The position numbers were made by a program, and so were the translations under genes. Positions 1-27,584 of a stretch of DNA of 64,000 bases are shown in pieces. The notes under the pieces were generated by a model. It made no database searches and was not told the DNA's origin. It saw only the letters and a list, made by a program, of their open reading frames with translations. The DNA comes from an uncultured bacterium (lineage in GTDB: Bacteria; Zhuqueibacterota; QNDG01; DTFT01): positions 64,001 through 128,000 of the forward strand of contig CAVTNR010000014.1 of assembly GCA_963736115.1 (NCBI GenBank), in the 5' to 3' direction. The stretch's first letter is position 1, and the number at the start of each line of letters is the position of its first letter.

Positions 1-70
1 CAATTTCAAGGAGAAGGCGCAGTTCGCGGCCGAGGAATCGGCCCAGACCGCGCCGAAAGTCCAGTTCTGA
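1..70 (+). CDS. 3' end of a CDS entering the window (…NFKEKAQFAAEESAQTAPKVQF*)
   Basis: Open frame from position 2 to TGA 68-70, followed by a terminator; product not identifiable. Confidence 0.5.
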   Translation, partial: NFKEKAQFAAEESAQTAPKVQF

Positions 71-100
71 CCGTTTCCCGATTTTTCAAAACGGATTTTC

Positions 101-142
101 CCATCCCGCCTTCCTTACAAGGGAAGGCGGGATGGCCTTTTT
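101..142 (+). terminator. Intrinsic terminator
   Basis: CCATCCCGCCTTCC / GGAAGGCGGGATGG stem followed by CCTTTTT. Confidence 0.8.
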
Positions 143-218
143 CGGAACGGAGTCAGCCGGCCGCCCGGCAGGCGCTCTGATCGCCATAGGGTTCCACCCC
201 GCGATCCGGGGCCAAGTC

Positions 219-245
219 GTAGGGTGGGCCTTCGGCCCACCCTAC
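219..245. repeat. GTAG-type REP-like palindrome
   Basis: GTAGGGTGGGCC-TTC-GGCCCACCCTAC; related copies at 21448-21515. Confidence 0.6.
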
Positions 246-263
246 AACTGAGGAAATGAAACA

Positions 264-3239
264 ATGACCGAACCTGAAGAAAATAGCCGATCCGCAACTC
301 CGGAAGATGGGGGCGTCGACCTGACCCCGAGCCAGCGCCAGGCCGTCGAGCACGGAAACGGTCCCCTGCTGATCGTGGCGGGCGCGGGCACGGGGAAAAC
401 ACTCGTTCTCACTCGGCGCATCGCGCACCTGATCCGGTCCAAACGCTTCAGGCCGGAGGAGATTCTGGCCCTCACGTTCACGGAAAAAGCCGCGGCCGAG
501 ATGGCTGAACGCGTGGATGTGCTTCTGCCCTACGGTTTCGCGGCAGTGAATGTGTCCACCTTCCATGCCTTCGGGGACCGGATTCTCCGGGAGTATGCGA
601 TCGAGCTCGGGCTGAATCCCGATTTTCAGGTGCTCTCCGAGGCCGAGCAGGTCATCCTGTTCCGGGAGCACCTTTTTGATTTTCCTCTGAAACATTACCG
701 GCCTCTCTCTGATCCCACCAAGTTCATTCAGGCCATGTTGAAAGTCATTTCCCGGGCGAAGGACGAGGACGTGTCCCCTGAGGACTATGCGGCTTACGTG
801 GCCGCCCTGCGGAAGGATCCGAAATCGGACCCGGAGGAAACCGGACGGCAGGCCGAAATCGCCGGAACCTACGCGGCTTACCAGCGCCTGCTGGCTGAGA
901 AGGGGAAGGCCGATTTCGGCGACCAGGTCACGCTGACTCTCCGGCTGTTCCGCGAACGGCCGCATGTGCTCAGCGAGGTCCATAAGCGGTACCGGGCCAT
1001 TCTGGTGGACGAGTTTCAGGACACGAACTACGCGCAGTTCCAGATGGTCCAAATGCTGGGCGGCCCTGAGGCCAATGTCACCGTGGTCGGCGACGACGAC
1101 CAGTCGATCTACAAGTTCAGGGGCGCCGCGATTTCCAACATCCTGGGCTTCAGAAAGACGTATCCACAGGCCCGGCTGGTCGTGCTCACCGGGAATTTCC
1201 GCTCCAGTCAGGAGATTCTTGACACGGCCTACCGGCTCATCCAGCACAACAATCCCGACCGGCTCGAGGTGCAGGAGCAGTTCGACAAGCGGCTGGTCTC
1301 GAACCGTGCCGAAGGCTCTCCGGTCGAACATATCCATGCGGATTCCCTGACTTCCGAGTCGGACCGGGTGGCGGCCCTGATTCAGGAAATGCTCGAGTCC
1401 GGGAAGGCCGTTCCGAACGACATTGCCATACTGGTACGGTCCAACTCGGACGCGGACCCTTTTCTGCGGGCGTTGAATCTCAAGAATATCCCGTGGCGTT
1501 TTTCAGGAAACCGGGGTCTGTACGGCAGGAGCGAGGTCCGCCTGCTGATTTCCTTTCTCCGTACGATTTCCGATTCCGGGGATTCGCTGAACCTTTTCGC
1601 TTTCGCGTCCTCTCCTGTGTACCAGATGCCGATGGAGGATCTTCTGCTGTGCGCGAACGCGGCCCGGCGTTCAAACCGGCCGCTGATGGACGTATTCCGG
1701 ACCGCGGCAACCGAAGATCCGGCGAAGAGCGGACGGCCCGAAACGGATTCTTCGAAGAATCGGGATCCGCTCGCCGGTCTGACGGACGAGGGCCGCATCA
1801 CGGTCCGGAAGCTCACGGCGGATATCCGCGCGTACGCCGAACTGTCGCGTGACCACGCGACGGGCGTCGTCCTGTATCAGTTCCTGATGCAGTCCGGTTT
1901 TCTGAAGCGTCTGTCCCAGAGCGCGGACCCGGAGGACGGCGTCCGCATTCAGAACATCGCCCGGTTCTTCGACGTGGTCGGATCCTTCGGCCGGATGGCC
2001 GAGGAGGATCGTGTGTTTCAGTTCGTCCGGCACCTCGAAATGCTCATGGAGGCGGGCGACGATCCCGGCACCGCGGAGACGGATCCGGACCTGGAGGCGG
2101 TCAGCGTGCTCACCGTGCACCGGGCCAAGGGGCTTGAGTGGCCGGTGGTGTTCATGGTCAGCCTGGTCCATCAGAAATTCCCCCACACCCGGCGGTCCGA
2201 CGCGCTTGATTTGCCAGAAGCACTGGTCCGGGATGAGCCCCCGAAAGGCGATTTTCACATGCAGGAGGAGCGGCGGTTGTTCTATGTGGCCATGACGCGG
2301 GCCCGGGACCGGCTGTTTTTCACGGGTGGAGCGGATTACGGGGGCGCCCGGATCCGGAAAGTCAGCCCCTTCGTGCTCGAGGCCCTGGACCGGCCGCATG
2401 TGGACCAGGTGAACTTCCGGTCCGGCGCGGAGGAACGGATCCGGCGTTTCGCGCCGATCGAGACCTCCTTCACGGAGCTGTCCGCGCCTCTTCCGGACGA
2501 CCGTGTGCTGCAGCTCTCGCACTTTCAGGTGGACGATTACCTCACCTGCCCCCTTAAATACAAGTATGTCCACATCCTGCGCGTACCCATACTCGAGCAC
2601 CACACCGTGGTGTACGGGAAATCCCTGCACAAGGCAGTCGAACTGTACCACGAACGAAAAACGAGCAGGGTCCCGGTCGCGCTGGAGGACCTTTTGGCCG
2701 CCTTCGAATCCGAATGGAAGAGCACGGGATTCCTGTCGGCCGCTCACGAGGAACAGCGCTTCGAGGCCGGGCGGAACGCGCTTCGGCGTTTCTTCGAGAC
2801 CGAGGAGACATCGGGCGCTGTGCCGATCCTGGTGGAGGAAAAATTCAGTTTCCTCATCGGGTACAACCGGATGGAGGGGCGCTGGGACCGGGTCGACGAA
2901 AGGGACGGCCGTATCGTGATCGTCGATTTTAAGTCCTCCGAAGTGTACCAGCAGGAGGCCGCGGACAAGCGGGCCGCTGAAAGCCTCCAGCTGGCCATAT
3001 ACGCCATGGCCTTTCAGAGGGCCTTCGATCGGCCCGTGGAATCCACGGAGCTCCGGTTCCTGGAATCGGGCCTGGTCGGTCGGGCGCCGGTCACGCCGAA
3101 GCGGCTGGAAAAGACGGAAACGGCCGTGCTTGAGGCCGCAGCCGGGATTCGCGGCCGGGACTACACAGCCAAACCTTCCTACCAGAGCTGTCGGTTCTGC
3201 GCCTATTCCGAGGTATGCCCCAGCGCGGCCGGGAGATGA
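264..3239 (+). CDS. UvrD/PcrA-family SF1 helicase fused to C-terminal PD-(D/E)XK nuclease with Fe-S cysteines (AddA/AdnB-like)
   Basis: AGAGTGKT, LVDEFQD, VGDDDQSIY, TVHRAKGLEW, EERRLFYVAMTRA; nuclease GRWDRVD…IVDFKS, QLAIYA; Cys in YLTCPLKY and CRFCAYSEVC. Confidence 0.93.
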   Translation: MTEPEENSRSATPEDGGVDLTPSQRQAVEHGNGPLLIVAGAGTGKTLVLTRRIAHLIRSKRFRPEEILALTFTEKAAAEMAERVDVLLPYGFAAVNVSTFHAFGDRILREYAIELGLNPDFQVLSEAEQVILFREHLFDFPLKHYRPLSDPTKFIQAMLKVISRAKDEDVSPEDYAAYVAALRKDPKSDPEETGRQAEIAGTYAAYQRLLAEKGKADFGDQVTLTLRLFRERPHVLSEVHKRYRAILVDEFQDTNYAQFQMVQMLGGPEANVTVVGDDDQSIYKFRGAAISNILGFRKTYPQARLVVLTGNFRSSQEILDTAYRLIQHNNPDRLEVQEQFDKRLVSNRAEGSPVEHIHADSLTSESDRVAALIQEMLESGKAVPNDIAILVRSNSDADPFLRALNLKNIPWRFSGNRGLYGRSEVRLLISFLRTISDSGDSLNLFAFASSPVYQMPMEDLLLCANAARRSNRPLMDVFRTAATEDPAKSGRPETDSSKNRDPLAGLTDEGRITVRKLTADIRAYAELSRDHATGVVLYQFLMQSGFLKRLSQSADPEDGVRIQNIARFFDVVGSFGRMAEEDRVFQFVRHLEMLMEAGDDPGTAETDPDLEAVSVLTVHRAKGLEWPVVFMVSLVHQKFPHTRRSDALDLPEALVRDEPPKGDFHMQEERRLFYVAMTRARDRLFFTGGADYGGARIRKVSPFVLEALDRPHVDQVNFRSGAEERIRRFAPIETSFTELSAPLPDDRVLQLSHFQVDDYLTCPLKYKYVHILRVPILEHHTVVYGKSLHKAVELYHERKTSRVPVALEDLLAAFESEWKSTGFLSAAHEEQRFEAGRNALRRFFETEETSGAVPILVEEKFSFLIGYNRMEGRWDRVDERDGRIVIVDFKSSEVYQQEAADKRAAESLQLAIYAMAFQRAFDRPVESTELRFLESGLVGRAPVTPKRLEKTETAVLEAAAGIRGRDYTAKPSYQSCRFCAYSEVCPSAAGR

Positions 3240-3357
3240 GGCCCGGAACCGGGAACCGGAAGGGGGGAGTCGGGGTTCACTTATATCCGGCATTCTTCAG
3301 CGTACCGCCGGCCGGATCAGCCGGAAATGATTGATTAACATAGAACGGAGATCGTGC

Positions 3358-3873
3358 ATGGATTTCTTTGAAACGGTTCAGGCCAGGCGTTCGGTGCGCT
3401 CATTCAAACCGGATCCCGTGGACGCTGAGGCGCTCAGCGGTATTCTGGAGGCGGCCCGTCTGGCGCCATCCGCGAACAACAGGCAGGAATGGCGATTTGT
3501 CGTCGTGCGGGATCCGTTGACGCGTCAGATGCTTTCAATTGCCGCGGAGGGACAGGCCTTCGTGGCTGAGGCGCCCGTGGTCATCGCGGCTTGCGCCTCG
3601 GAATCGGATCATATCATGCACTGCGGCCATCCGGCCTATGCCGTTGACCTGGCCATCGCCATCGAGCACATGGTTCTGGCCGCGGCCAGCCTCGGGTTGG
3701 GAACTTGCTGGATCGGCGCGTTCAATCAGGCGAGGGTACGGGAAATCCTCGGTATTCCCGATTCCGTGGCGGTCGTGGAACTCCTGGCCCTGGGCCATCC
3801 GGCGGCCGTTCCCGGCCCCAGGCCGCGCAAATCCATGAATGAGATTGTGGCGTACGAGAAGTGGACGTTTTGA
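3358..3873 (+). CDS. Nitroreductase family protein
   Basis: RRSVRSF, APSANNRQEWRFVVV, LGLGTCWIGAF; ATG 3358 after GGAG. Confidence 0.93.
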   Translation: MDFFETVQARRSVRSFKPDPVDAEALSGILEAARLAPSANNRQEWRFVVVRDPLTRQMLSIAAEGQAFVAEAPVVIAACASESDHIMHCGHPAYAVDLAIAIEHMVLAAASLGLGTCWIGAFNQARVREILGIPDSVAVVELLALGHPAAVPGPRPRKSMNEIVAYEKWTF

Positions 3874-3910
3874 TCAGATCTCGGATTTCCGAATACGGAA
3901 TTGAAGCGGC

Positions 3911-4164
3911 CGGTAGCCGCGGGCTTCAGCCCGCGTTTGAAAAAGAATCGCCAGACCATAAGTGACCGGTAGCCGCGGGCTTTAACCCGCGTTTGAAAGA
4001 GAATCGCCAGACCATAAGTGACCGGTAGCCGCGGGCTTTAACCCGCGTTTGAAAGAGAATCGCCAGACCAAAAGCGATCGGTAGCCGCGGGCTTCAGCCC
4101 GCGTTTGAAAGAGAATCGCCAGACCATAAGTGATCGGTAGCCGCGGGCTTCAGCCCGCGTTTGA
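3911..4164. repeat. Tandem array of 4.5 x 56-bp units, each carrying a GTAG-type REP hairpin
   Basis: Units start at 3911, 3967, 4023, 4079 and 4135; GTAGCCGCGGGCTT(C/T)A(G/A)CCCGCG plus a nearly invariant linker. Confidence 0.9.
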
Positions 4165-22063: not shown

Positions 22064-22354
22064 GTGAAAACAATTTTAATAAATTTACTAGGAATAATTA
22101 TATATAGTGGTCCCGTAATTTTCTATTTAATAACCAGATTCATAGGGTCCATTAAAAATGATAGATTGACCAATAGATTGTTTGTAGGTCAAATATTATT
22201 TCAAGCGATAGTAGGCATAATATTAATATATAGATATTTTCAAAATAAGTTTATTATTGAAGATTTAATAGTATTGTTTATTTGTGGAGCAATCACAATA
22301 ATTATCGATATAATATATATTCCTATTAGATTAATTGAGTTAAACGGGAAGTAA
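22064..22354 (+). CDS. Gene-cassette 1 ORF: small AT-rich membrane protein
   Basis: Three hydrophobic segments; lies between core site 21993 and attC1. Confidence 0.65.
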   Translation: MKTILINLLGIIIYSGPVIFYLITRFIGSIKNDRLTNRLFVGQILFQAIVGIILIYRYFQNKFIIEDLIVLFICGAITIIIDIIYIPIRLIELNGK

Positions 22355-22406
22355 AATATACCAATTACAGATTTATAAATATTGATTAAACAGATAACTG
22401 ATTTTC

Positions 22407-22513
22407 GCATAACCCGTTAATCGTGCGGACGGTGCCCTAATCGGTCTTGACTTCCTGGAGGGGCGTGCAATGCGAAATATCCCATTGCCGCCCGCACATC
22501 AACCATGTTATGC
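22407..22513 (+). mobile_element. attC site 1 (intact)
   Basis: GCATAAC…GTTATGC; arms GTTAATCGTGCGG / CCGCACATCAAC pair with an extrahelical base. Confidence 0.85.
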
Positions 22514-23167
22514 GGATATATGAGGTATTCAAATATGATCATACGAATATTCCCGTCAGCTGTGATAAGGTACCCAGCGATAGTTCATCAGATAAAAATA
22601 AAGCTGACTATTTCCCTGTTGAATTGAACACTAAATGGACATATCAGTATTCATCATATTTTATTTCGAGTGGTTTTGATGGCGATTTCGTAGAAGCAAC
22701 AGATGAATGGGAAATTATAAATAAAACAATAAATGATACGGTTATAATTTATACAGTAAATAGAAATTCAAAGGAAGAATTTGAAAAGAAATATCAATTG
22801 AAGAATTGGTTAAAATACGATACAACCATAATAAATAATGAGATGAGCGTGTTCAATATTTATGAAAATATTCATTTAAATGTAATATCGATTGACTTAA
22901 AAGAAAGCGATAGTATGAATTACCTAAAAATGGAAATTATCATCTTGAACATTAAACGGAGTAGGATCAATACCACCTGGAAGTATGGTTATGTTTCGAT
23001 TTGGTGATTATATCGTTGGCCATGGTCTAGTCAGGGAAGATATCAAACCTATAAATATAAAAATAGAAGGTGTGACGTATCATGGTCTTATTAAATTTGA
23101 TAAACAATCTATAAAAATTTATCCAATAATCATTACCCATAAAGTTATTAGAAAAATATCTTACTAG
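22510..23167 (+). pseudogene. Degenerate cassette-2 gene (lipoprotein-like, DYFP…WTY motif)
   Basis: SCDK…DYFPVELNTKWTY without an intact signal peptide; split into ORFs ending at 23007 and 23167. Confidence 0.5.
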
Positions 23168-23249
23168 AAATCTGTCGGTTGCTCAACCATATTATAAACT
23201 TGATGCATACAAATTATTAGATACATTATTGATTAAAATACTAAAATTG

Positions 23250-23280
23250 GCATAACACGATCATTCTCGGGACGGTGCCC
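23250..23280 (+). mobile_element. attC site 2, left arm (interrupted by IS)
   Basis: GCATAACACGATCATTCTCGGGACGGTGCCC; homologous to the attC1 left arm and pairs with 24728-24753. Confidence 0.85.
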
Positions 23281-23399
23281 CTTTAAAAAGGACAAAGTCA
23301 AGTATAAAATATCCTCTCGGGCGAAAACAATATGTTTTCGCCTAATGTAAAGATGGTTTGGATTGACGTAACAGCGTTCGTTCTTTGAAAAACTCTGTC

Positions 23400-23590
23400 T
23401 CTGTGCCGATTCAATATCGTTGAACGTCAATGGCGTCCATACCCCTTTCCGGGCTTGACTCTCTCAGATCGAGAGCGTTCCGAAATCGTCTCAGAACTAT
23501 CCCAGATATCTTATCGGCACTGCGAGCCTGACTTCCCAATCCCTACTGCGGATCTCTAGGATCCAGCACCGTCCCCGGGCTTGTCGGGCT
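23400..23590 (-). ncRNA. Bridge RNA / seekRNA of the IS1111-group element
   Basis: Minus-strand guides GGACGGTGC and AGTAGGG match target GACGGTG-CCC-TACT; AAGATATC and AAAGGGG match donor AAAATAT-CCC-CTTT; RNA ends are approximate. Confidence 0.8.
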
Positions 23591-24589
23591 CGGCCAGTGA
23601 CGCACTTTTACTCGTGTTAGTTTTTTCCCTTTAAAGGTAAAATCATAATCAGATTTCTTGGTGATGACGTGATACACGATACGGGCCAGTTCTTTGGCAA
23701 CCAGGTTCCGTGCAAGGTGTTTGTTTTTTTTACGGCATTTTCTTTGATAGAAGTCCCGGATTTCAGGGTAATTCGTGTAGGCGCTAACAGCCGCATCGTT
23801 GAAAACAATTTTTAGATAGTTATTGCCGGCTTTTGATTCTTTTTTGCCGTGCTTGCATTTTCCGCCCGAATTGGAAGCCGCAGGCACGACTCTCGAATAG
23901 GAGAAAAACTTTTTTTCCGTTGGGAATCTTGAAAAATCCCCAACTTCGAGAAAAATGGTGAATGCACTGATTTTACCGATACCTGGAATCCAGAGAATTC
24001 TCTGAACATCCTCATTGAGGACGACTTGAGGATAAATCGTTTTTTCCAGTTCTTTGACTTGTTCGTTTAGGAAATTGACATGCTCATCAAGCTGCTTGTA
24101 CTGAAATTGAAAAAGACCGGGTAGATCATCAGGATCGGTTACGTTGAATTTCTCAGTCAATCGGCAGATACTGTTTACGACACACGTTTTTCTTTGAATC
24201 AGGCGAAGTCTGGCTCTCATGAGATCGCGTTTATCCCTGAGAACGGGATCGATTTGATGGGCTTCAGGTATATAATCGATTCTAAGTAATTGTGCCATGG
24301 TTGTGGAATCGATTTGGTCTGTTTTGATTTTAGCAGTGGATATGGCTTTGAGTTTGTTGGTATTGGCCAGGATCATCTCGATGCCGTTCCCGTGAAGCAG
24401 GTCGGCGATCCAATACCATCCATTTGTGGATTCGACGACAACTTTGTGTGTGTTGCCAAGTTGTTGAAAATAATTGAGTATTTTATCGGGATGATTGTAT
24501 ATTTTCTGTTGCTCGATGACAACGCCTTTCTCATCGACGGTTGTCAGGTGAGAGAAGCTTTTATGAAGATCGATGCCGGTGTAATACAT
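23543..24589 (-). CDS. IS110-family DEDD recombinase/transposase
   Basis: GIDLHK, VVVEST, KTDQIDS, IPGIG, SNSGG (catalytic Ser), GNNYLK; GGGAGG RBS before ATG 24589. Confidence 0.96.
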   Translation of the reverse strand: MYYTGIDLHKSFSHLTTVDEKGVVIEQQKIYNHPDKILNYFQQLGNTHKVVVESTNGWYWIADLLHGNGIEMILANTNKLKAISTAKIKTDQIDSTTMAQLLRIDYIPEAHQIDPVLRDKRDLMRARLRLIQRKTCVVNSICRLTEKFNVTDPDDLPGLFQFQYKQLDEHVNFLNEQVKELEKTIYPQVVLNEDVQRILWIPGIGKISAFTIFLEVGDFSRFPTEKKFFSYSRVVPAASNSGGKCKHGKKESKAGNNYLKIVFNDAAVSAYTNYPEIRDFYQRKCRKKNKHLARNLVAKELARIVYHVITKKSDYDFTFKGKKLTRVKVRHWPSPTSPGTVLDPRDPQ

Positions 24590-24678
24590 GACGGGCCTCC
24601 CTGCTGACATTGGTGATTTTATGCTAATTTAATCACCTTGAATGAAAAGGGAAAGGACGTCCTTTTTGAAAATATCCC

Positions 24679-24753
24679 TACTCAGTTGTGGCTTTTTGAA
24701 AGCTGTGCAATCCGTAACCGATCATGTCCGCCCCGAGATGATCACCGTTACCA
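24679..24753 (+). mobile_element. attC site 2, right arm
   Basis: TACTCAGTTGTGGC…GTGCAATCCG…CCGCCCCGAGATGATCACC-GTT; homologous to attC1 and attC4. Confidence 0.85.
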
Positions 24754-24899
24754 TCTGGTTAGATGAGATTACTATAAACTATTTTAAAAAGTTAGCTGAT
24801 GAAATTGATGTGCCCTATCAGACATTAATCAATCTTTATCTAAGAGATTGTGCTGCTACTAATCGAAAACTATCTTTAAAATGTCGACCGGCCGGTTAA
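24747..24899 (+). pseudogene. 5'-truncated BrnA/CopG-like antitoxin remnant
   Basis: VTIWLDEITINYFKKLADEIDVPYQTLINLYLRDCA begins exactly at the attC2 GTT; no N-terminus or toxin gene. Confidence 0.7.
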
Positions 24900-24961
24900 T
24901 TTTCTCGGCCAACCCCAGATCCAATTGTGTCATTCGTTGAACCATACTGTGGAGCGAATCA

Positions 24962-26764
24962 ATGCTAAAAGAACATCCAAGAGGGTTACTTGTCGCATTC
25001 ATCGCCAACATGGGCGAACGCTTTGGCTTTTACACCATGATGGCCATTCTGGTGCTGTTCCTGCAGGCCAAATATGGTCTCAGCGAAAGAGAAGCAGGAA
25101 GTTACTACAGCTGGTTCTATTTCGGTATTTACGCGCTGGCGCTGTTTGGCGGCACGATAGCGGATTGGAGCAAAAAGTACAAGCTGGTCATTCTGGTTGG
25201 TCTGCTCGTCATGTTCTCCGGTTACATTATTATGAGTCTGCCGGGCAACACCCTTGCCATGACGCTGATCGGTCTTTTTATCATTGCCTTTGGCAATGGT
25301 TTATTTAAAGGCAACCTGCAGGCGGTGGTCGGTCAGATGTACGACAATCCGCAGTACTCCAAAGTCCGCGACTCCGCATACATGATTTTCTACATGGGCA
25401 TAAACGTCGGCGCTTTTTTCGCGCCATTTGCCGCCACAGCGGCCCGCAACTGGTTTTTAAAGACACAAGGGCTGCTCCACGACGGCAGTATGCCTGCCAT
25501 GTGTCATGCCTTCATGCGCGGAGAAATGAACGATATCGGAAAATTTCAGGCGCTCGCCGACAAAGTCTCCGGGCAAACGGTCACAAATCCGGGCGTATTT
25601 GCACAGCATTATATCGATGTTTTCTCCAGGGGTTACAATTATGCCTTTGCGCTCGCGGCAGGGGCGATGATTCTTTCCACCCTGGTTTTCGTCATTTTCA
25701 ATAAACATTTGCCGAACAAAGAAAATTCGGCCGTCAAGGAGAAAGTTGGTAAGGGATCACTGTCTTTTGTCTTGGCGCTGATCGCCGCCGCGGCATCAGC
25801 CGGTTTGGCATACCTCGCCTCCGGCAATGTGGACATATCGTTCGCTATCGGTCTTTTCATCGGGTTTGTAACATGGATCGTGCAGATTTCCACCAAAGAA
25901 GAACGGCCGCGCATCGTCGCCCTGCTACTGGTATTCCTAGTGGTCATCTTCTTCTGGATGTCATTCCACCAGAATGGGCTCACGCTCACCTTCTTCGCCC
26001 GCGATTATACGGTCAAGGAAGTCGGTCCTTTCACCAACATATTCTTCGATCTCACATCCATGCTGGTATTTATCGGAGCGGTGGCCGGATTTTTCCTGCT
26101 CCTGCTGAACAAGAAATCGTTGGGCAAATTGATCGGCGGAGTCATGTTGGCTGGTTTAGGCTATTTAACCTATTACTTTGTCTCGCGAAATCAGACTTTA
26201 AATCCCATCGCCCCCGAAGTATTTCAGTCATTCAATCCGCTCTTCATTGTTGCGCTAACTTTTCCGGTGATGGCCATTTTCGCCTGGTTGAATCGAAAAA
26301 ATATTGAGCCTTCAACGCCGAAAAAGATCGGCATCGGCATGATCATCGCATCCATCGGCTTTCTCATCGTGCTGGTCGCCTCCCTCAAGCTGGTGTCGCC
26401 GCACATGCTGCAATACGTCGACGGGTTCGGCAAGCAGGCGTACAATCCGGTGCCGGATACATCGCGGGTCTCGCCCTACTGGCTGATCCACAGTTACCTC
26501 ATCCTCACCATTGCAGAACTATTCCTCAGTCCGATGGGATTGTCTTTTGTGTCGAAAGTTGCGCCAGTGCGTTTCCAGGGCGTGATGCAGGGTGGCTGGC
26601 TGCTGGCTACGGCCGTTGGTAACAAGCTCCTGGTCGTCGGCAGTTACTTCTGGGGCAAACTGGATCTGTGGCAGCTTTGGGGTATTTTTATCATCTGCTG
26701 TTTGTTATCGGCTGGATTTATTTTTTCAATCATGAAAAGGCTAGAGCAATCCACCAAAAGCTGA
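24962..26764 (+). CDS. POT/PTR-family proton-dependent oligopeptide MFS transporter
   Basis: MGERFGFY, GNGLFKGN, FYMGINVGA, FQSFNPLFI, AELFLSPMGLS. Confidence 0.93.
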   Translation: MLKEHPRGLLVAFIANMGERFGFYTMMAILVLFLQAKYGLSEREAGSYYSWFYFGIYALALFGGTIADWSKKYKLVILVGLLVMFSGYIIMSLPGNTLAMTLIGLFIIAFGNGLFKGNLQAVVGQMYDNPQYSKVRDSAYMIFYMGINVGAFFAPFAATAARNWFLKTQGLLHDGSMPAMCHAFMRGEMNDIGKFQALADKVSGQTVTNPGVFAQHYIDVFSRGYNYAFALAAGAMILSTLVFVIFNKHLPNKENSAVKEKVGKGSLSFVLALIAAAASAGLAYLASGNVDISFAIGLFIGFVTWIVQISTKEERPRIVALLLVFLVVIFFWMSFHQNGLTLTFFARDYTVKEVGPFTNIFFDLTSMLVFIGAVAGFFLLLLNKKSLGKLIGGVMLAGLGYLTYYFVSRNQTLNPIAPEVFQSFNPLFIVALTFPVMAIFAWLNRKNIEPSTPKKIGIGMIIASIGFLIVLVASLKLVSPHMLQYVDGFGKQAYNPVPDTSRVSPYWLIHSYLILTIAELFLSPMGLSFVSKVAPVRFQGVMQGGWLLATAVGNKLLVVGSYFWGKLDLWQLWGIFIICCLLSAGFIFSIMKRLEQSTKS

Positions 26765-27161: not shown

Positions 27162-27408
27162 TAGAAATCGTGGCAATTTTAAGTTTTCAAAGAAATATAT
27201 TAGATCAATAAAACTGCCAGGGGCGCCTGCCCATACCTAACCCCTCCCCTGAACGGCGCCTGGCAGTAACGAAAACAAAAGAAGAAGATATAATAGAAGA
27301 AGAAGGGAAATAGTGTAATCGGCAATTTTTAATTATACTAAAAATGTAAATTTGAAAATGTACGACTTCTTGTTTGAATCCTCTTTTAGAACAGAAAAGA
27401 TACTTCGA

Positions 27409-27500
27409 CCATAACCCGCACCTTGGACTCAGTTGTGGCTTCCTGGAGCCCGTGCAATCCGAAAGCAATCATGCCCGCCCGCACAGGTTGCCCGTTGTGA
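27409..27500 (+). mobile_element. attC site 4 (internally deleted left arm)
   Basis: CCATAAC (complement of GTTATGG at 27155)…GTTGTGA; middle and right part closely match attC1/attC2. Confidence 0.8.
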
Positions 27501-27584
27501 GTTGTTTGAGAGCGCAATAAAGTTGAACTCGACGTGCCGCACACTTTCAAAAGAACGGTAAACGTTAAAGCTGAAAATGATGCA

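What the first reader, a model, noticed from the sequence alone, without database searches (positions are those of the whole stretch)
23250..24753. Complete attC-targeting IS1111 bridge-recombinase system with all four RNA guides readable
Seen in sequence: the junctions are GACGGTG-CCC-CTTT (23271-23284) and AAAATAT-CCC-TACT (24669-24682). The empty target is therefore GACGGTG-CCC-TACT and the circle donor is AAAATAT-CCC-CTTT. The minus-strand RNA reads, in order: GGACGGTGC-tgg (23574-23566, matches target left), a GGATC/GATCC hairpin, AGTAGGG-attgg (23547-23541, complements target right), AAGATATC-tgg (23512-23505, matches donor left with one mismatch) and AAAGGGG-tatgg (23448-23442, complements donor right). 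The loops are closed by AGCCCGAC/GTCAGGCT and GTGCCGAT/ATCGGCAC stems. Established: IS110/IS1111 elements use a bridge/seekRNA, IS1111-group elements encode it downstream of tnp, and some IS1111 elements target attC sites. Inference: this is an intact, reprogrammable recombinase with a CCC core, from a poorly sampled lineage and programmed against a lineage-specific attC family.
Basis: partly seen in the sequence, partly recalled or inferred. Interest (0 to 1): 0.92.

Follow-up and report, generated by a model that had tools for sequence, protein, structure and literature searches.

The report
RNA-guided insertion sequence inside an integron site
This is an intact jumping gene of the IS1111 type that carries its own guide RNA and sits in an integron recombination site matching that RNA; it is a well-supported new example of a mechanism described in 2024.

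Summary
Window 23281-24678 (minus strand) is a 1398-bp IS1111-type element. It has a 348-aa DEDD transposase (PF01548+PF02371), 9-bp subterminal inverted repeats, a short left end and a long right end holding a structured RNA (about 23398-23596).

Their meaning is supported by comparison with 160 related loci:
- The RNA is conserved in 157 of 161 sources.
- Its main stem shows compensatory changes.
- The right-end guide recurs exactly at the element's end in 111 of 145 loci.
- Both target guides follow their flanks (0 of 2000 permutations reach the observed match).
- One close relative (L093) has a 4-base guide change mirrored in its flank.

The target is an attC-like repeat with 17 sites in this genome, arranged in cassette-type arrays. 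An uninterrupted exact copy of the target lies on another contig.

- The shared core is 2 nt (CC on the + strand), not 3.
- The left-donor guide is the weakest.
- The element belongs to a large, deeply branching clade whose usual target is the attC end motif. This element and its nearest relatives insert 21-23 nt further inside.

attC-targeting IS1111 elements with seekRNA/bridge RNA are already published, so this is a new member of a known kind. No RNA or transposition data exist.

The parts
23281..24678 (-). The insertion sequence: 1398 bp, counting one copy of the repeated CCC. The boundary is ambiguous within that 3-nt repeat (23278-23280 and 24676-24678).
   Evidence: Junction strings. 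Close relatives L092 and L093 align up to these ends and not beyond, apart from the attC-like flanks. A metagenome contig joins 23277 to 24676, skipping 1398 bases with 3 shared letters. Single copy in the genome. GC 0.433 against 0.582 for the window.
23543..24589 (-). Transposase gene: 348 aa from the ATG at 24589 (M8 of the longest ORF, which starts at 24610). The stop codon TAG is at 23545-23543.
   Evidence: PF01548 (2.3e-14) and PF02371 (7.5e-18). NF033542 scores 174.6 bits against a cut-off of 140. Homologs are 338-348 aa and M8 is an invariant column. GGAGG lies 6 nt upstream of that ATG (read).
23398..23596 (-). Bridge/seekRNA region. The RNA ends have not been mapped. Its first roughly 55 nt overlap the 3' end of the transposase gene.
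   Evidence: An nhmmer profile finds it just after or overlapping tnp in 157 of 161 sources. Fold z = -3.3. Compensatory pairs in 77 non-redundant RNAs. No Rfam family matches.
23583..23591 (-). 5' arm of stem P1, which closes the target-binding domain. It pairs with 23523-23532.
   Evidence: 9 pairs, 95-100% canonical, with 2-5 canonical pair types per position among 77 RNAs.
23523..23532 (-). 3' arm of stem P1.
23566..23575 (-). Guide 1 (GGGACGGTGC). It is complementary to the element-orientation top strand of the right flank, which on the + strand is the left flank 23269-23278.
   Evidence: 10-nt exact match. Compensatory change in L093 (guide GCAA, flank TTGC). Family permutation test 0 of 2000.
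23550..23564 (-). Hairpin GGATCC-loop-GATCC lying between the two target guides.
   Evidence: Pairs at columns 37-40/48-51 are 82-99% canonical with 3-5 pair types.
23541..23547 (-). Guide 2 (AGTAGGG). It is identical to the left flank plus core in element orientation (+ strand 24676-24682) and contains the transposase stop codon.
   Evidence: Family test of guide 2 against the left flank: 2.63 against 1.12 contiguous nt beyond the core, 0 of 2000 permutations.
23505..23512 (-). Guide 3 (AAGATATC). It is complementary to the left end of the element (+ strand 24669-24676) with one mismatch.
   Evidence: This is the weakest guide: 5 exact nt here, reached in 3628 of 5000 shuffles. The family signal is small but real.
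23442..23448 (-). Guide 4 (AAAGGGG). It is identical to the right end of the element plus core (+ strand 23278-23284).
   Evidence: In 111 of 145 loci the locus's own 7-mer recurs exactly once 100-260 nt downstream, and 9 different 7-mers are involved.
23513..23520 (-). 5' arm (GTGCCGAT) of the outer stem of the donor-binding domain. It pairs with 23403-23410.
   Evidence: Modest family support: longest complementary run 5.18 against 4.77 in 45 RNAs, 0 of 500 permutations. RNAalifold instead pairs the GCC with a nearer GG, so this stem is less certain than P1.
23403..23410 (-). 3' arm (ATCGGCAC) of that outer stem.
23285..23293 (.). Subterminal inverted repeat, right-end copy (AAAAAGGAC on the + strand).
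   Evidence: k = 9; offsets 5 and 8 nt from a 2-nt core, as in most relatives.
24659..24667 (.). Subterminal inverted repeat, left-end copy (GTCCTTTTT on the + strand).
23296..23301 (-). TTGACT at the right end, a candidate -35 box of a promoter that would be completed by the ATATTT left end in the excised circle (inference).
   Evidence: TTGAC starts 24 nt from the end of the core in 108 of 113 loci.
23245..23280 (+). Left part of the interrupted attC-like repeat. It contains GCATAAC and the guide-1 target.
   Evidence: nhmmer hit at profile positions 2-37 (genome C14:87245-87280).
24676..24754 (+). Right part of the interrupted attC-like repeat.
   Evidence: nhmmer hit at profile positions 35-113 (genome C14:88676-88754).
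22402..22516 (+). Neighbouring uninterrupted attC-like repeat carrying GGACGGTGCCCTAAT, which has 1 mismatch to the target.
   Evidence: Its bottom strand folds as one long imperfect hairpin, -22.1 kcal/mol, z = -2.48.

Best explanation
An intact IS1111-type insertion sequence lies in an attC-like recombination site of an integrase-less cassette array. It encodes a DEDD/serine RNA-guided recombinase. Downstream of that gene, and partly overlapping its 3' end, it encodes a roughly 200-nt bridge RNA (seekRNA) with two internal loops.

In the target loop, guide 1 pairs with one strand to the right of a 2-nt core. Guide 2 pairs with the other strand to the left of the core and across it. In the donor loop, guides 3 and 4 do the same on the joined ends of the excised circle. 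The inferred cycle is excision to a circle, followed by RNA-directed insertion at GGACGGTG-CC-(C)TACT. This sequence sits at the inner end of the first arm of this genome's own attC family, 21 nt from the GCATAAC end. The transposase gene runs antisense to the cassette ORFs.

Shown here: the anatomy, the RNA structure by covariation, the covariation of guides with flanks and ends, and the presence of free targets. Inferred only: that the RNA is made, that it binds the protein, and that the element still moves.
For: Protein. PF01548 and PF02371 match. NF033542 'IS110 family RNA-guided transposase' scores 174.6 bits against a cut-off of 140. D14, E60 and D98 are invariant, and D101, P243 and S248 nearly invariant, among 33 homologs. 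There is distant similarity to the IS621 transposase (8wt6, E 2.5e-7) and the ISCro4 transposase.

RNA. It is conserved in 157 of 161 sources; the 4 without it are L078, L085, L086 and L094, whose held DNA ends within or about 50 nt after the transposase match. Stem P1 is 95-100% canonical with 2-5 canonical pair types per position in 77 non-redundant RNAs. The hairpin between the guides, and GGG/CCC pairs inside the donor loop, also covary.

Guides.
- Guide 4: the locus's own 7-mer recurs once 100-260 nt downstream in 111 of 145 loci, across 9 different 7-mers.
- Guide 1 against the right flank: mean contiguous match 4.17 against 3.28 (sd 0.10) for 102 non-redundant pairs, 0 of 2000 permutations. 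The contiguous match is 9 nt in the window, 8 in L092, 8 in L093 (after a 4-base change on both sides) and 8 in L162.
- Guide 2 against the left flank: 2.63 against 1.12, 0 of 2000, for 43 pairs.
- Core: the last 2 nt of guides 2 and 4 are equal in 144 of 145 loci (GG 98, TG 44, GT 2).

Target. The attC-like family has 17 sites in the genome. Same-strand arrays lie on C12 (6 sites) and C16 (6 sites), with neighbouring copies a few tens of bases to about 1.4 kb apart. The exact 15-mer target lies uninterrupted at C16:1798, and 6 more sites have 1 mismatch. All seven are inside attC copies, against 0.013 exact and 0.56 within 1 mismatch expected by chance.

Other samples. In run X1 a contig about 92% identical covers 23270-24680 at depth 24.4, while flank contigs sit at 3.5-5.8 and continue into different sequences. 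One contig joins the two flanks exactly across the element.
Against: - No RNA data: no listed sequencing run holds the element as RNA, so transcription and RNA ends are unknown.
- No sigma-70-like promoter was found directly upstream of the RNA, and no terminator-like site by the scan's rule.
- The element is single-copy in this 87%-complete genome although 7 good targets are free. It may be inactive or slow, or further copies may have been lost at contig ends.
- Guide 3 is weak. It has 5 exact nt here (3628 of 5000 shuffles do as well). In the family its invariant ATATC could equally be a structural stem with the conserved GATAT near the 3' end (as in the fold), or could reflect a conserved -10-like left end.
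- In the guide-1 test several loci matched poorly. L096 and L091 score 0 in the fixed register (9 and 6 nt by eye when shifted by 2 and 1). L113 scores 0, L163 scores 1, and L064, L150, L067 and L068 score 2.
- Left junctions could be placed uniquely in only 56 of the 108 loci where an inverted repeat was found.
- The joint seen was obtained at 85% likeness with 27 letters on its shorter side. The tool warns that such joints often come from other organisms, so it shows a related empty attC, not excision in this genome.
Confidence: 0.86

Rival explanations
1. The element uses only the short two-guide seekRNA (target loop). The 'donor loop' matches are not guides. The ends would be recognised through the flanking target halves and the subterminal inverted repeats, as proposed for IS1111 elements in the seekRNA paper.
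For: PMC11187229 (sections 9 and 10 read) reports that an 82-nt seekRNA holding only the two target matches supported ISEc11 transposition, and that target-derived flanks of the donor were needed. Guide 3 is weak here. Its ATATC can pair with a conserved GATAT within the RNA.
Against: Guide 4 equals the element's right end plus core in 111 of 145 loci, across 9 different 7-mers. The core dinucleotide of the donor loop changes together with that of the target loop in 144 of 145 loci. Bridge RNAs with donor loops were predicted for IS1111 elements (PMC11208160, passages read).
Confidence: 0.1
2. The element is a dead relic. The guide matches only record the original insertion, and the element no longer moves.
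For: It is single-copy, although one exact and six 1-mismatch targets are free in the same genome. There is no RNA evidence.
Against: The ORF is open, with the family's invariant residues in place. The guides match the flanks without decay, at 10 of 10 and 7 of 7 nt. Relatives about 92% identical occur at several attC contexts, at higher depth than their flanks, in another sample. The genome is 87% complete in 31 contigs, and contig C16 starts inside an attC copy, so copies may have been lost.
Confidence: 0.25
3. The target repeat is not an integron attC but another palindromic repeat family (REP-like), as targeted by IS1111 members such as ISPa11.
For: No integrase gene lies next to any array. 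The only integron-integrase match (C12:324986-325908) is split over two frames with an internal TGA, and it lies more than 200 kb from the C12 array. The middle of the repeat is conserved, RNAalifold found no consensus structure, and one copy folds no better than shuffles. No attC covariance model was available.
Against: The copies form same-strand arrays, on C16 at 650-980 bp starts, with short ORFs between them. They begin with (G/C)(C/T)(A/T)TAAC-like words and end with GTTA(T/G)-like words. Their arms change in a compensatory way between copies while leaving single unpaired bases. The genome scores 345 bits on TIGR02249 against a cut-off of 265. 90 of 102 related elements sit directly against a TTA(G/T) flank, as expected for attC ends.
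Confidence: 0.12

Closest known systems
ISKpn4 / ISPst6 / ISPa25 / ISPa21 (IS1111 elements that target attC sites; the 'IS1111-attC group')
   Same: They insert site- and orientation-specifically into integron attC sites, near the 5' end and antisense to the cassettes (PMC3001079, passage read). ISKpn4 and ISPst6 make a seekRNA from the region downstream of tnp that co-purifies with the transposase and carries a top-strand match 5' of a bottom-strand match (PMC11187229, sections 8 and 9 read). The window element shows the same layout, order and orientation.
   Different: The insertion point lies 21 nt inside the attC arm instead of at its end. The guides are matched to a chromosomal, lineage-specific attC family. 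The transposase is at most 34% identical to anything in 72,556 plasmid records. I could not obtain the reference sequences, so common descent with that group is untested. The original descriptions (Tetu and Holmes 2008; Post and Hall 2009) were not held and are cited only through other papers.
ISEc11 (IS1111 family, seekRNA shown to be programmable)
   Same: Downstream non-coding RNA, subterminal inverted repeats with unequal terminal extensions, no target duplication, a circular intermediate, and a transposase of 330-350 aa (PMC11187229, sections 6 and 7 read).
   Different: ISEc11 has a linear, non-attC target. Its two-guide short RNA was sufficient in the assays, whereas here the donor-loop guide 4 and the core covary as in bridge RNAs.
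IS621 bridge RNA and recombinase (IS110 group; PDB 8wt6)
   Same: Two internal loops, each with two guides that read opposite strands on either side of a shared core dinucleotide. The recombinase has a DEDD plus serine architecture (PMC11208160 passages).
   Different: In IS621 the RNA lies in the left end, upstream of the gene, the inverted repeats are 2-3 bp, and the guide order is reversed. Protein similarity is only E 2.5e-7. The core here is GG or TG (in element orientation), and no Rfam model matches.
ISPa11 (IS1111 family, targets REP palindromes)
   Same: An IS1111 element whose seekRNA is aimed at a genome's own repeated, foldable sequence family (PMC11187229, sections 4 and 8 read).
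   Different: The repeat family here is cassette-associated and attC-like rather than REP.

Membership tests
IS110 superfamily of RNA-guided DEDD transposases | N-terminal DEDD (RuvC-like) domain plus the C-terminal Transposase_20 domain | tested here: met
   PF01548 residues 12-150 and PF02371 residues 203-289. NF033542 scores 174.6 bits against a cut-off of 140.
IS110 superfamily of RNA-guided DEDD transposases | Conserved acidic residues and the P-x4-S-G motif (motif as given in PMC11187229, section 6) | tested here: met
   D14, E60 and D98 are invariant; D101, P243 and S248 are nearly invariant in 33 sequences. The window reads P243-AASN-S248-G249. Which residues are catalytic comes from the paper and recall and was not tested.
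IS1111 group | Subterminal inverted repeats of 7-17 bp (PMC11208160 passage) | tested here: met
   9-bp AAAAAGGAC at 23285-23293, with its complement at 24659-24667. Repeats of 7-12 bp at the same offsets occur in the 56 relatives with a placed left end.
IS1111 group | Short left end, long right end, and guide RNA in the right end downstream of tnp | tested here: met
   The left end is 89 nt (24590-24678) and the right end 262 nt (23281-23542). The RNA lies at 23398-23596.
IS1111 group | Segment complementary to the top strand lies 5' of the segment complementary to the bottom strand (PMC11187229, section 9) | tested here: met
   Guide 1 (5') is complementary to the element-orientation top strand of the right flank. 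Guide 2 (3') is identical to the top strand of the left flank.
IS1111 group | Transposase groups with IS1111 in a phylogeny | not tested
   No ISfinder reference set was on hand. Identity to IS4321/IS5075-family transposases on plasmids is only 22.1-22.5%.
IS1111-attC group (Tetu and Holmes 2008) | Insertion in attC near its 5' end, antisense to the cassette genes (PMC3001079 passage) | tested here: met
   tnp is on the minus strand. The candidate cassette ORFs 22064-22354, 22447-23007 and 24642-24899 are on the plus strand. The insertion lies 21 nt from GCATAAC at the 5' side. The position therefore differs by 21 nt from the clade's usual site.
IS1111-attC group (Tetu and Holmes 2008) | Monophyly with ISPa21/ISPst6 | not tested
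   Reference sequences could not be obtained. The paper is not held.
Integron attC site | Inverted end motifs (recalled consensus RYYYAAC ... GTTRRRY) around imperfectly paired arms with unpaired bases | tested here: met
   GCATAAC...GTTATGC occurs at 22407-22511, and similar ends occur in most of the 16 aligned copies. The arms change in a compensatory way between copies. The bottom strand of one copy folds with z = -2.48, but another copy gives z = -0.93. The right end of the interrupted copy reads GTTACCA, which does not fit the recalled consensus.
Integron attC site | Same-strand arrays separating short cassettes | tested here: met
   6 copies on C16 at 3-4017 and 6 on C12 at 109343-113064, all on one strand. 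3 copies lie in the window.
Integron attC site | Recognised by an attC covariance model and recombined by an integron integrase | not testable with these tools
   No attC model is in Rfam (one search gave no hit) or otherwise on hand. The genome's only TIGR02249 match is split and distant from the arrays.
Bridge RNA (as defined for IS621) | Two loops whose guides share one core dinucleotide and match target and donor | tested here: met
   The core is equal in 144 of 145 loci. Guides 1, 2 and 4 covary with flanks and end. Guide 3 does so only weakly.

The most novel reading that the evidence does not exclude
Within a large, uncharacterised clade of attC-seeking IS1111-like elements, found mostly in Ignavibacteria-, Bacteroidota- and Gemmatimonadota-labelled genomes, one sub-clade has moved its insertion register. 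This sub-clade comprises the window, L092, L093 and L096, and probably L097, whose right flank is cut after 8 nt. They share 57-97% transposase identity. Their insertion point has shifted from the conserved attC end motif to the variable inner end of the arm, 21-23 nt away. Their guides must therefore track each host lineage's own attC family. In this sub-clade the target loop is also overprinted on the transposase C-terminus, with the stop codon inside guide 2, so retargeting and protein-tail sequence are coupled. Other members (L091, L162, L163) appear to have left attC altogether. Together these give a natural series of reprogramming events.
Probability: 0.6. Interest if true: 0.5.

Novelty: new member of a known kind. 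Interest (0 to 1): 0.4.

Why it matters
It adds a cleanly readable natural example in which guides, core, ends, free targets and a compensatory guide/target change in a close relative can all be read from sequence. It also points to a large clade that looks unstudied: 1073 protein matches and 243 genome loci, with at most 34% identity to plasmid-borne relatives. This clade aims RNA-guided recombinases at integron attC sites outside the clinical class 1 context. That bears on how cassette arrays are disrupted or stabilised in environmental bacteria. It also widens the pool of recombinase and bridge-RNA pairs with GG or TG cores that could be tested as tools. It does not change the known mechanism.

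Tried and rejected
Rfam. The search of 22500-25500 at E up to 1 gave no match, so the RNA belongs to no curated family.

Promoters and terminators. The scan found no promoter-like site directly upstream of the RNA and no terminator-like site by its rule. The hairpin GGCGAAAAC...GTTTTCGCC at 23320-23342 is only something I read in the sequence.

attC consensus fold. RNAalifold on 16 attC copies returned no consensus structure. The compensatory arm changes are therefore read by eye from that alignment.

Expression. No RNA holder is listed for this stretch, and no run held more than 0.16 of its words.

Reads. laid contigs only, at 85% likeness. They show related elements and related empty attC sites in other samples, not this genome's own reads.

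Reference elements. I tried to reach ISKpn4 or ISPa21 through the plasmid collection. The two loci I opened, L172 and L173, are not in integron contexts, so no direct comparison with the experimentally tested seekRNAs was possible. Supplementary figures and files of PMC11187229 and PMC11208160, which hold the ISKpn4 seekRNA fold and the IS1111 bridge RNA predictions, were not seen and may already include members of this clade.

Left-end search. A first search that demanded 7 nt of guide 3 with at most 1 mismatch placed a candidate in only 25 of 145 loci. It was replaced by the inverted-repeat-anchored search.

Three-nt core. I considered it and rejected it (6 of 145 loci).

Not attempted. The taxon of the host genome was not determined.
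Full report
**What is there.**

The longest ORF on the minus strand, 23543-24610, carries the two Pfam domains of IS110-family transposases. It passes NCBIfam's 'IS110 family RNA-guided transposase' model at 174.6 bits against a cut-off of 140. Homologs are 338-348 aa, and the methionine at position 8 is an invariant column. The gene is therefore most likely 23543-24589 (348 aa), with GGAGG 6 nt upstream of its start codon.

The element is 1398 bp if one copy of the repeated CCC is counted. It has a 9-bp subterminal inverted repeat (23285-23293 and 24659-24667), a short left end of 89 nt and a long right end of 262 nt. It is single-copy in the 3.34-Mb, 31-contig, 87%-complete genome. Its GC content is 0.433 against 0.582 for the window. 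It lies in a low-GC island at about 20-28 kb.

**The RNA.**

The minus strand of 23390-23600 folds into two domains at -80.3 kcal/mol (z = -3.3). I collected 160 loci encoding relatives:
- 80 from genomes, at most 53% identical, mostly MAGs labelled Ignavibacteria, Bacteroidetes, Melioribacter, Gemmatimonadota or Rhodothermales.
- 80 from metagenomes, including L092 at 95%, L093 at 87%, L094 at 90% (partial), L095 at 69%, and L096 and L097 at 57%.

A profile built from five RNAs found the region in 146 of 160 loci. After two rounds it was found in 157 of 161 sources, the window included. In the four without it (L078, L085, L086, L094), the held DNA ends within or about 50 nt after the transposase match.

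In 77 non-redundant RNAs, taken from the 106 of 157 rows with few gaps, the stem closing the target domain has 9 pairs. These pairs are 95-100% canonical with 2-5 canonical pair types each. In the window this stem is 23591-23583 with 23532-23523. The small hairpin between the two target guides, and a GGG/CCC pairing inside the donor domain, also covary. The outer stem GTGCCGAT/ATCGGCAC has only modest support (5.18 against 4.77; 0 of 500 permutations; 45 RNAs), and RNAalifold preferred another partner for its GCC. Rfam has no matching family.

**Do the guides mean anything?**

Within the window alone only guide 1 is beyond chance. Its 10-nt match is reached in 5 of 5000 shuffles, against 548, 3628 and 382 for guides 2, 3 and 4. 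All four together are reached in 0. The family comparison supplies the rest. I read the four guide positions off the profile alignment for 145 loci.

- Guide 4. The locus's own 7-mer recurs exactly once 100-260 nt downstream in 111 of 145 loci, across nine different 7-mers. This marks the right end of each element.
- Guide 1. The 11 nt beyond that end match the reverse complement of the locus's own guide 1 better than that of other loci. The mean contiguous match is 4.17 against 3.28 (sd 0.10, max 3.60), 0 of 2000 permutations, for 102 non-redundant pairs.
- Clearest single cases. L093 reads GGACGCAAC in the guide where the window reads GGACGGTGC, and its flank reads TTGCGTCC where the window reads CACCGTCC. 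L162 has an unrelated guide with 8 of 8 matching.
- Misses. L096 and L091 score 0 in the fixed register but match 9 and 6 nt when shifted by 2 and 1. L113 scores 0 and L163 scores 1. L064, L150, L067 and L068 score 2.
- Left junctions. I anchored these on the inverted repeat, and they could be placed uniquely in 56 of 108 loci.
- Guide 2. It matches the left flank beyond the core at 2.63 against 1.12 nt (0 of 2000; 43 non-redundant pairs).
- Guide 3. It shows only a small signal beyond its invariant ATAT (2.86 against 2.08 of 5; 0 of 2000; 21 pairs).
- Core. The last two letters of guides 2 and 4 are the same in 144 of 145 loci (GG 98, TG 44, GT 2). The last three are the same in only 6. The core is therefore a dinucleotide: GG in element orientation, CC on the + strand. 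The third C is particular to this small clade.

**The target.**

The flanks belong to a repeat of about 110 nt with 17 sites in the genome:
- Six on C12 at 109.3-113.1 kb and six on C16 at 0-4 kb, each set on one strand. Starts are 650-980 bp apart on C16; gaps on C12 run from 33 bases to about 1.4 kb.
- Three in the window: 22402-22516, the interrupted one, and 27400-27503.
- One each on C8 (partial) and C22.

The copies start with words like GCATAAC and end with words like GTTATGC. Their arms differ between copies in a compensatory way while leaving single unpaired bases. The bottom strand of the copy at 22405-22512 folds as one long imperfect hairpin (z = -2.48), but a second copy does not stand out from shuffles.

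The genome has one integron-integrase match, at 345 bits against a cut-off of 265. It is split over two frames with an internal TGA and lies more than 200 kb from the C12 array. I read this as attC sites in cassette arrays that lack a nearby integrase. I hold that reading at about 0.8 to 0.9, because no attC model was on hand.

The 15-letter target occurs uninterrupted at C16:1798. Six more sites have one mismatch. All seven are inside attC copies, against 0.013 exact and 0.56 within one mismatch expected by chance.

**Place in the family.**

In 90 of 102 non-redundant relatives the right flank begins TTA(G/T). With the core's last G this makes a GTTA... word like the attC end motif. The clade as a whole is thus attC-seeking, in the orientation reported for IS1111 elements in integrons: near the 5' end and antisense to the cassettes (PMC3001079, passage read).

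The window, L092, L093 and L096 instead have 21-23 nt of attC arm between the insertion point and that word. Their reconstructed sites fold as attC-like hairpins. L097's right flank is cut after 8 nt, so its site could not be judged. The sites of L091, L162 and L163 do not look attC-like.

Against 72,556 plasmid records the transposase is at most 34% identical, and 22.1-22.5% identical to IS4321/IS5075-family proteins. Whether the clade shares descent with ISPa21, ISPst6 and ISKpn4 could not be tested.

**Other samples.**

No run holds more than 0.16 of the element's words, and none holds it as RNA. Laid at 85% likeness, run X1 has a 1428-nt contig covering 23270-24680, with 107 differing letters, at depth 24.4. 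Contigs at the flanks sit at depth 3.5-5.8 and run on into different sequences. One contig joins 23277 to 24676 (skipping 1398, 3 shared letters). Other contigs in X1 and X4 carry ...GGACGGTG followed by CCCTACT... without an element. These are related elements and related empty sites in other communities. They agree with the boundaries and with mobility in the clade, but they are not evidence for excision in this genome.

**Mechanism.**

I take the element to work as published for IS110/IS1111 elements. It excises to a circle, and the recombinase-RNA complex then pairs guides 1 and 2 with the two strands of the target and guides 3 and 4 with the joined ends around a shared GG core. A TTGAC word sits 24 nt from the right end in 108 of 113 loci. 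Together with the invariant ATATTT left end it would form a promoter only in the circle. This is an inference, by analogy with the junction promoter of ISEc11, which I know only from the reference list of PMC11187229.

**Comparison and verdict.**

attC-targeting IS1111 elements have been known since 2008-2009 (cited through PMC11187229 and PMC3001079; the originals were not held). ISKpn4 and ISPst6 were shown to make a seekRNA with the same order of matches, and reprogramming was shown for ISEc11 (PMC11187229, sections 4, 6-10 and 13 read). Bridge RNAs with target, donor and core loops were predicted in the right end of 93% of IS1111 elements (PMC11208160, passages read).

It is a new member of a known kind. 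What is modestly new is the shifted insertion register, the lineage-specific attC target, and the size and depth of the clade.

Noticed in passing
window 23541-23600: The transposase ORF runs on into the target-binding loop, and its stop codon TAG (23545-23543) lies inside guide 2. The window's nearest relatives are 344-348 aa, while most of the clade is 338-339 aa. The overlap therefore seems particular to this sub-clade, and it would couple guide sequence to the protein tail.
   Followed up: partly
genome C12:324986-325908 (loci L007, L009): The only integron-integrase match (TIGR02249, 345 bits) is split into two pieces in different frames and has one internal TGA. It lies more than 200 kb from the attC array on the same contig. 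It may be a decayed integrase or an assembly error.
   Followed up: no
window 27400-27503: This attC-like copy lacks the segment matched by guide 1. It reads CCGCACCTTGGACTCAG where the others read ...GGACGGTGCCCTA..., so it would not be a target.
   Followed up: partly
window 24962-26764: A 600-aa POT-family peptide transporter gene lies between two attC-like copies in the low-GC island. This is unusually large for a cassette. It may not be a cassette at all.
   Followed up: no
window 24642-24899: A short ORF with a weak CopG-antitoxin match (23.2 bits, below the cut-off of 28) starts inside the right part of the interrupted attC. That attC end reads GTTACCA instead of a GTTRRRY-like word.
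   Followed up: no
loci L091, L162, L163: These relatives have guides and flanks unrelated to attC. L162 matches 8 of 8, and the reconstructed sites do not fold as attC-like hairpins. The clade therefore also contains members retargeted away from integrons.
   Followed up: partly
window 23296-23301 and relatives: TTGAC is conserved exactly 24 nt from the right end in 108 of 113 loci. This is consistent with a promoter assembled only at the circle junction.
   Followed up: partly
window 24652-24665: A perfect 14-nt palindrome AAAGGACGTCCTTT overlaps the left subterminal repeat. It is imperfect in L092, L093 and L094.
   Followed up: no
window 23442-23459 and 23566-23584: Guides 1 and 4 are both preceded by the same word CAAGCCCGG. 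Guides 2 and 3 are both followed by TGGGA-type words. The two loops may be an ancient duplication or may share protein contacts.
   Followed up: no
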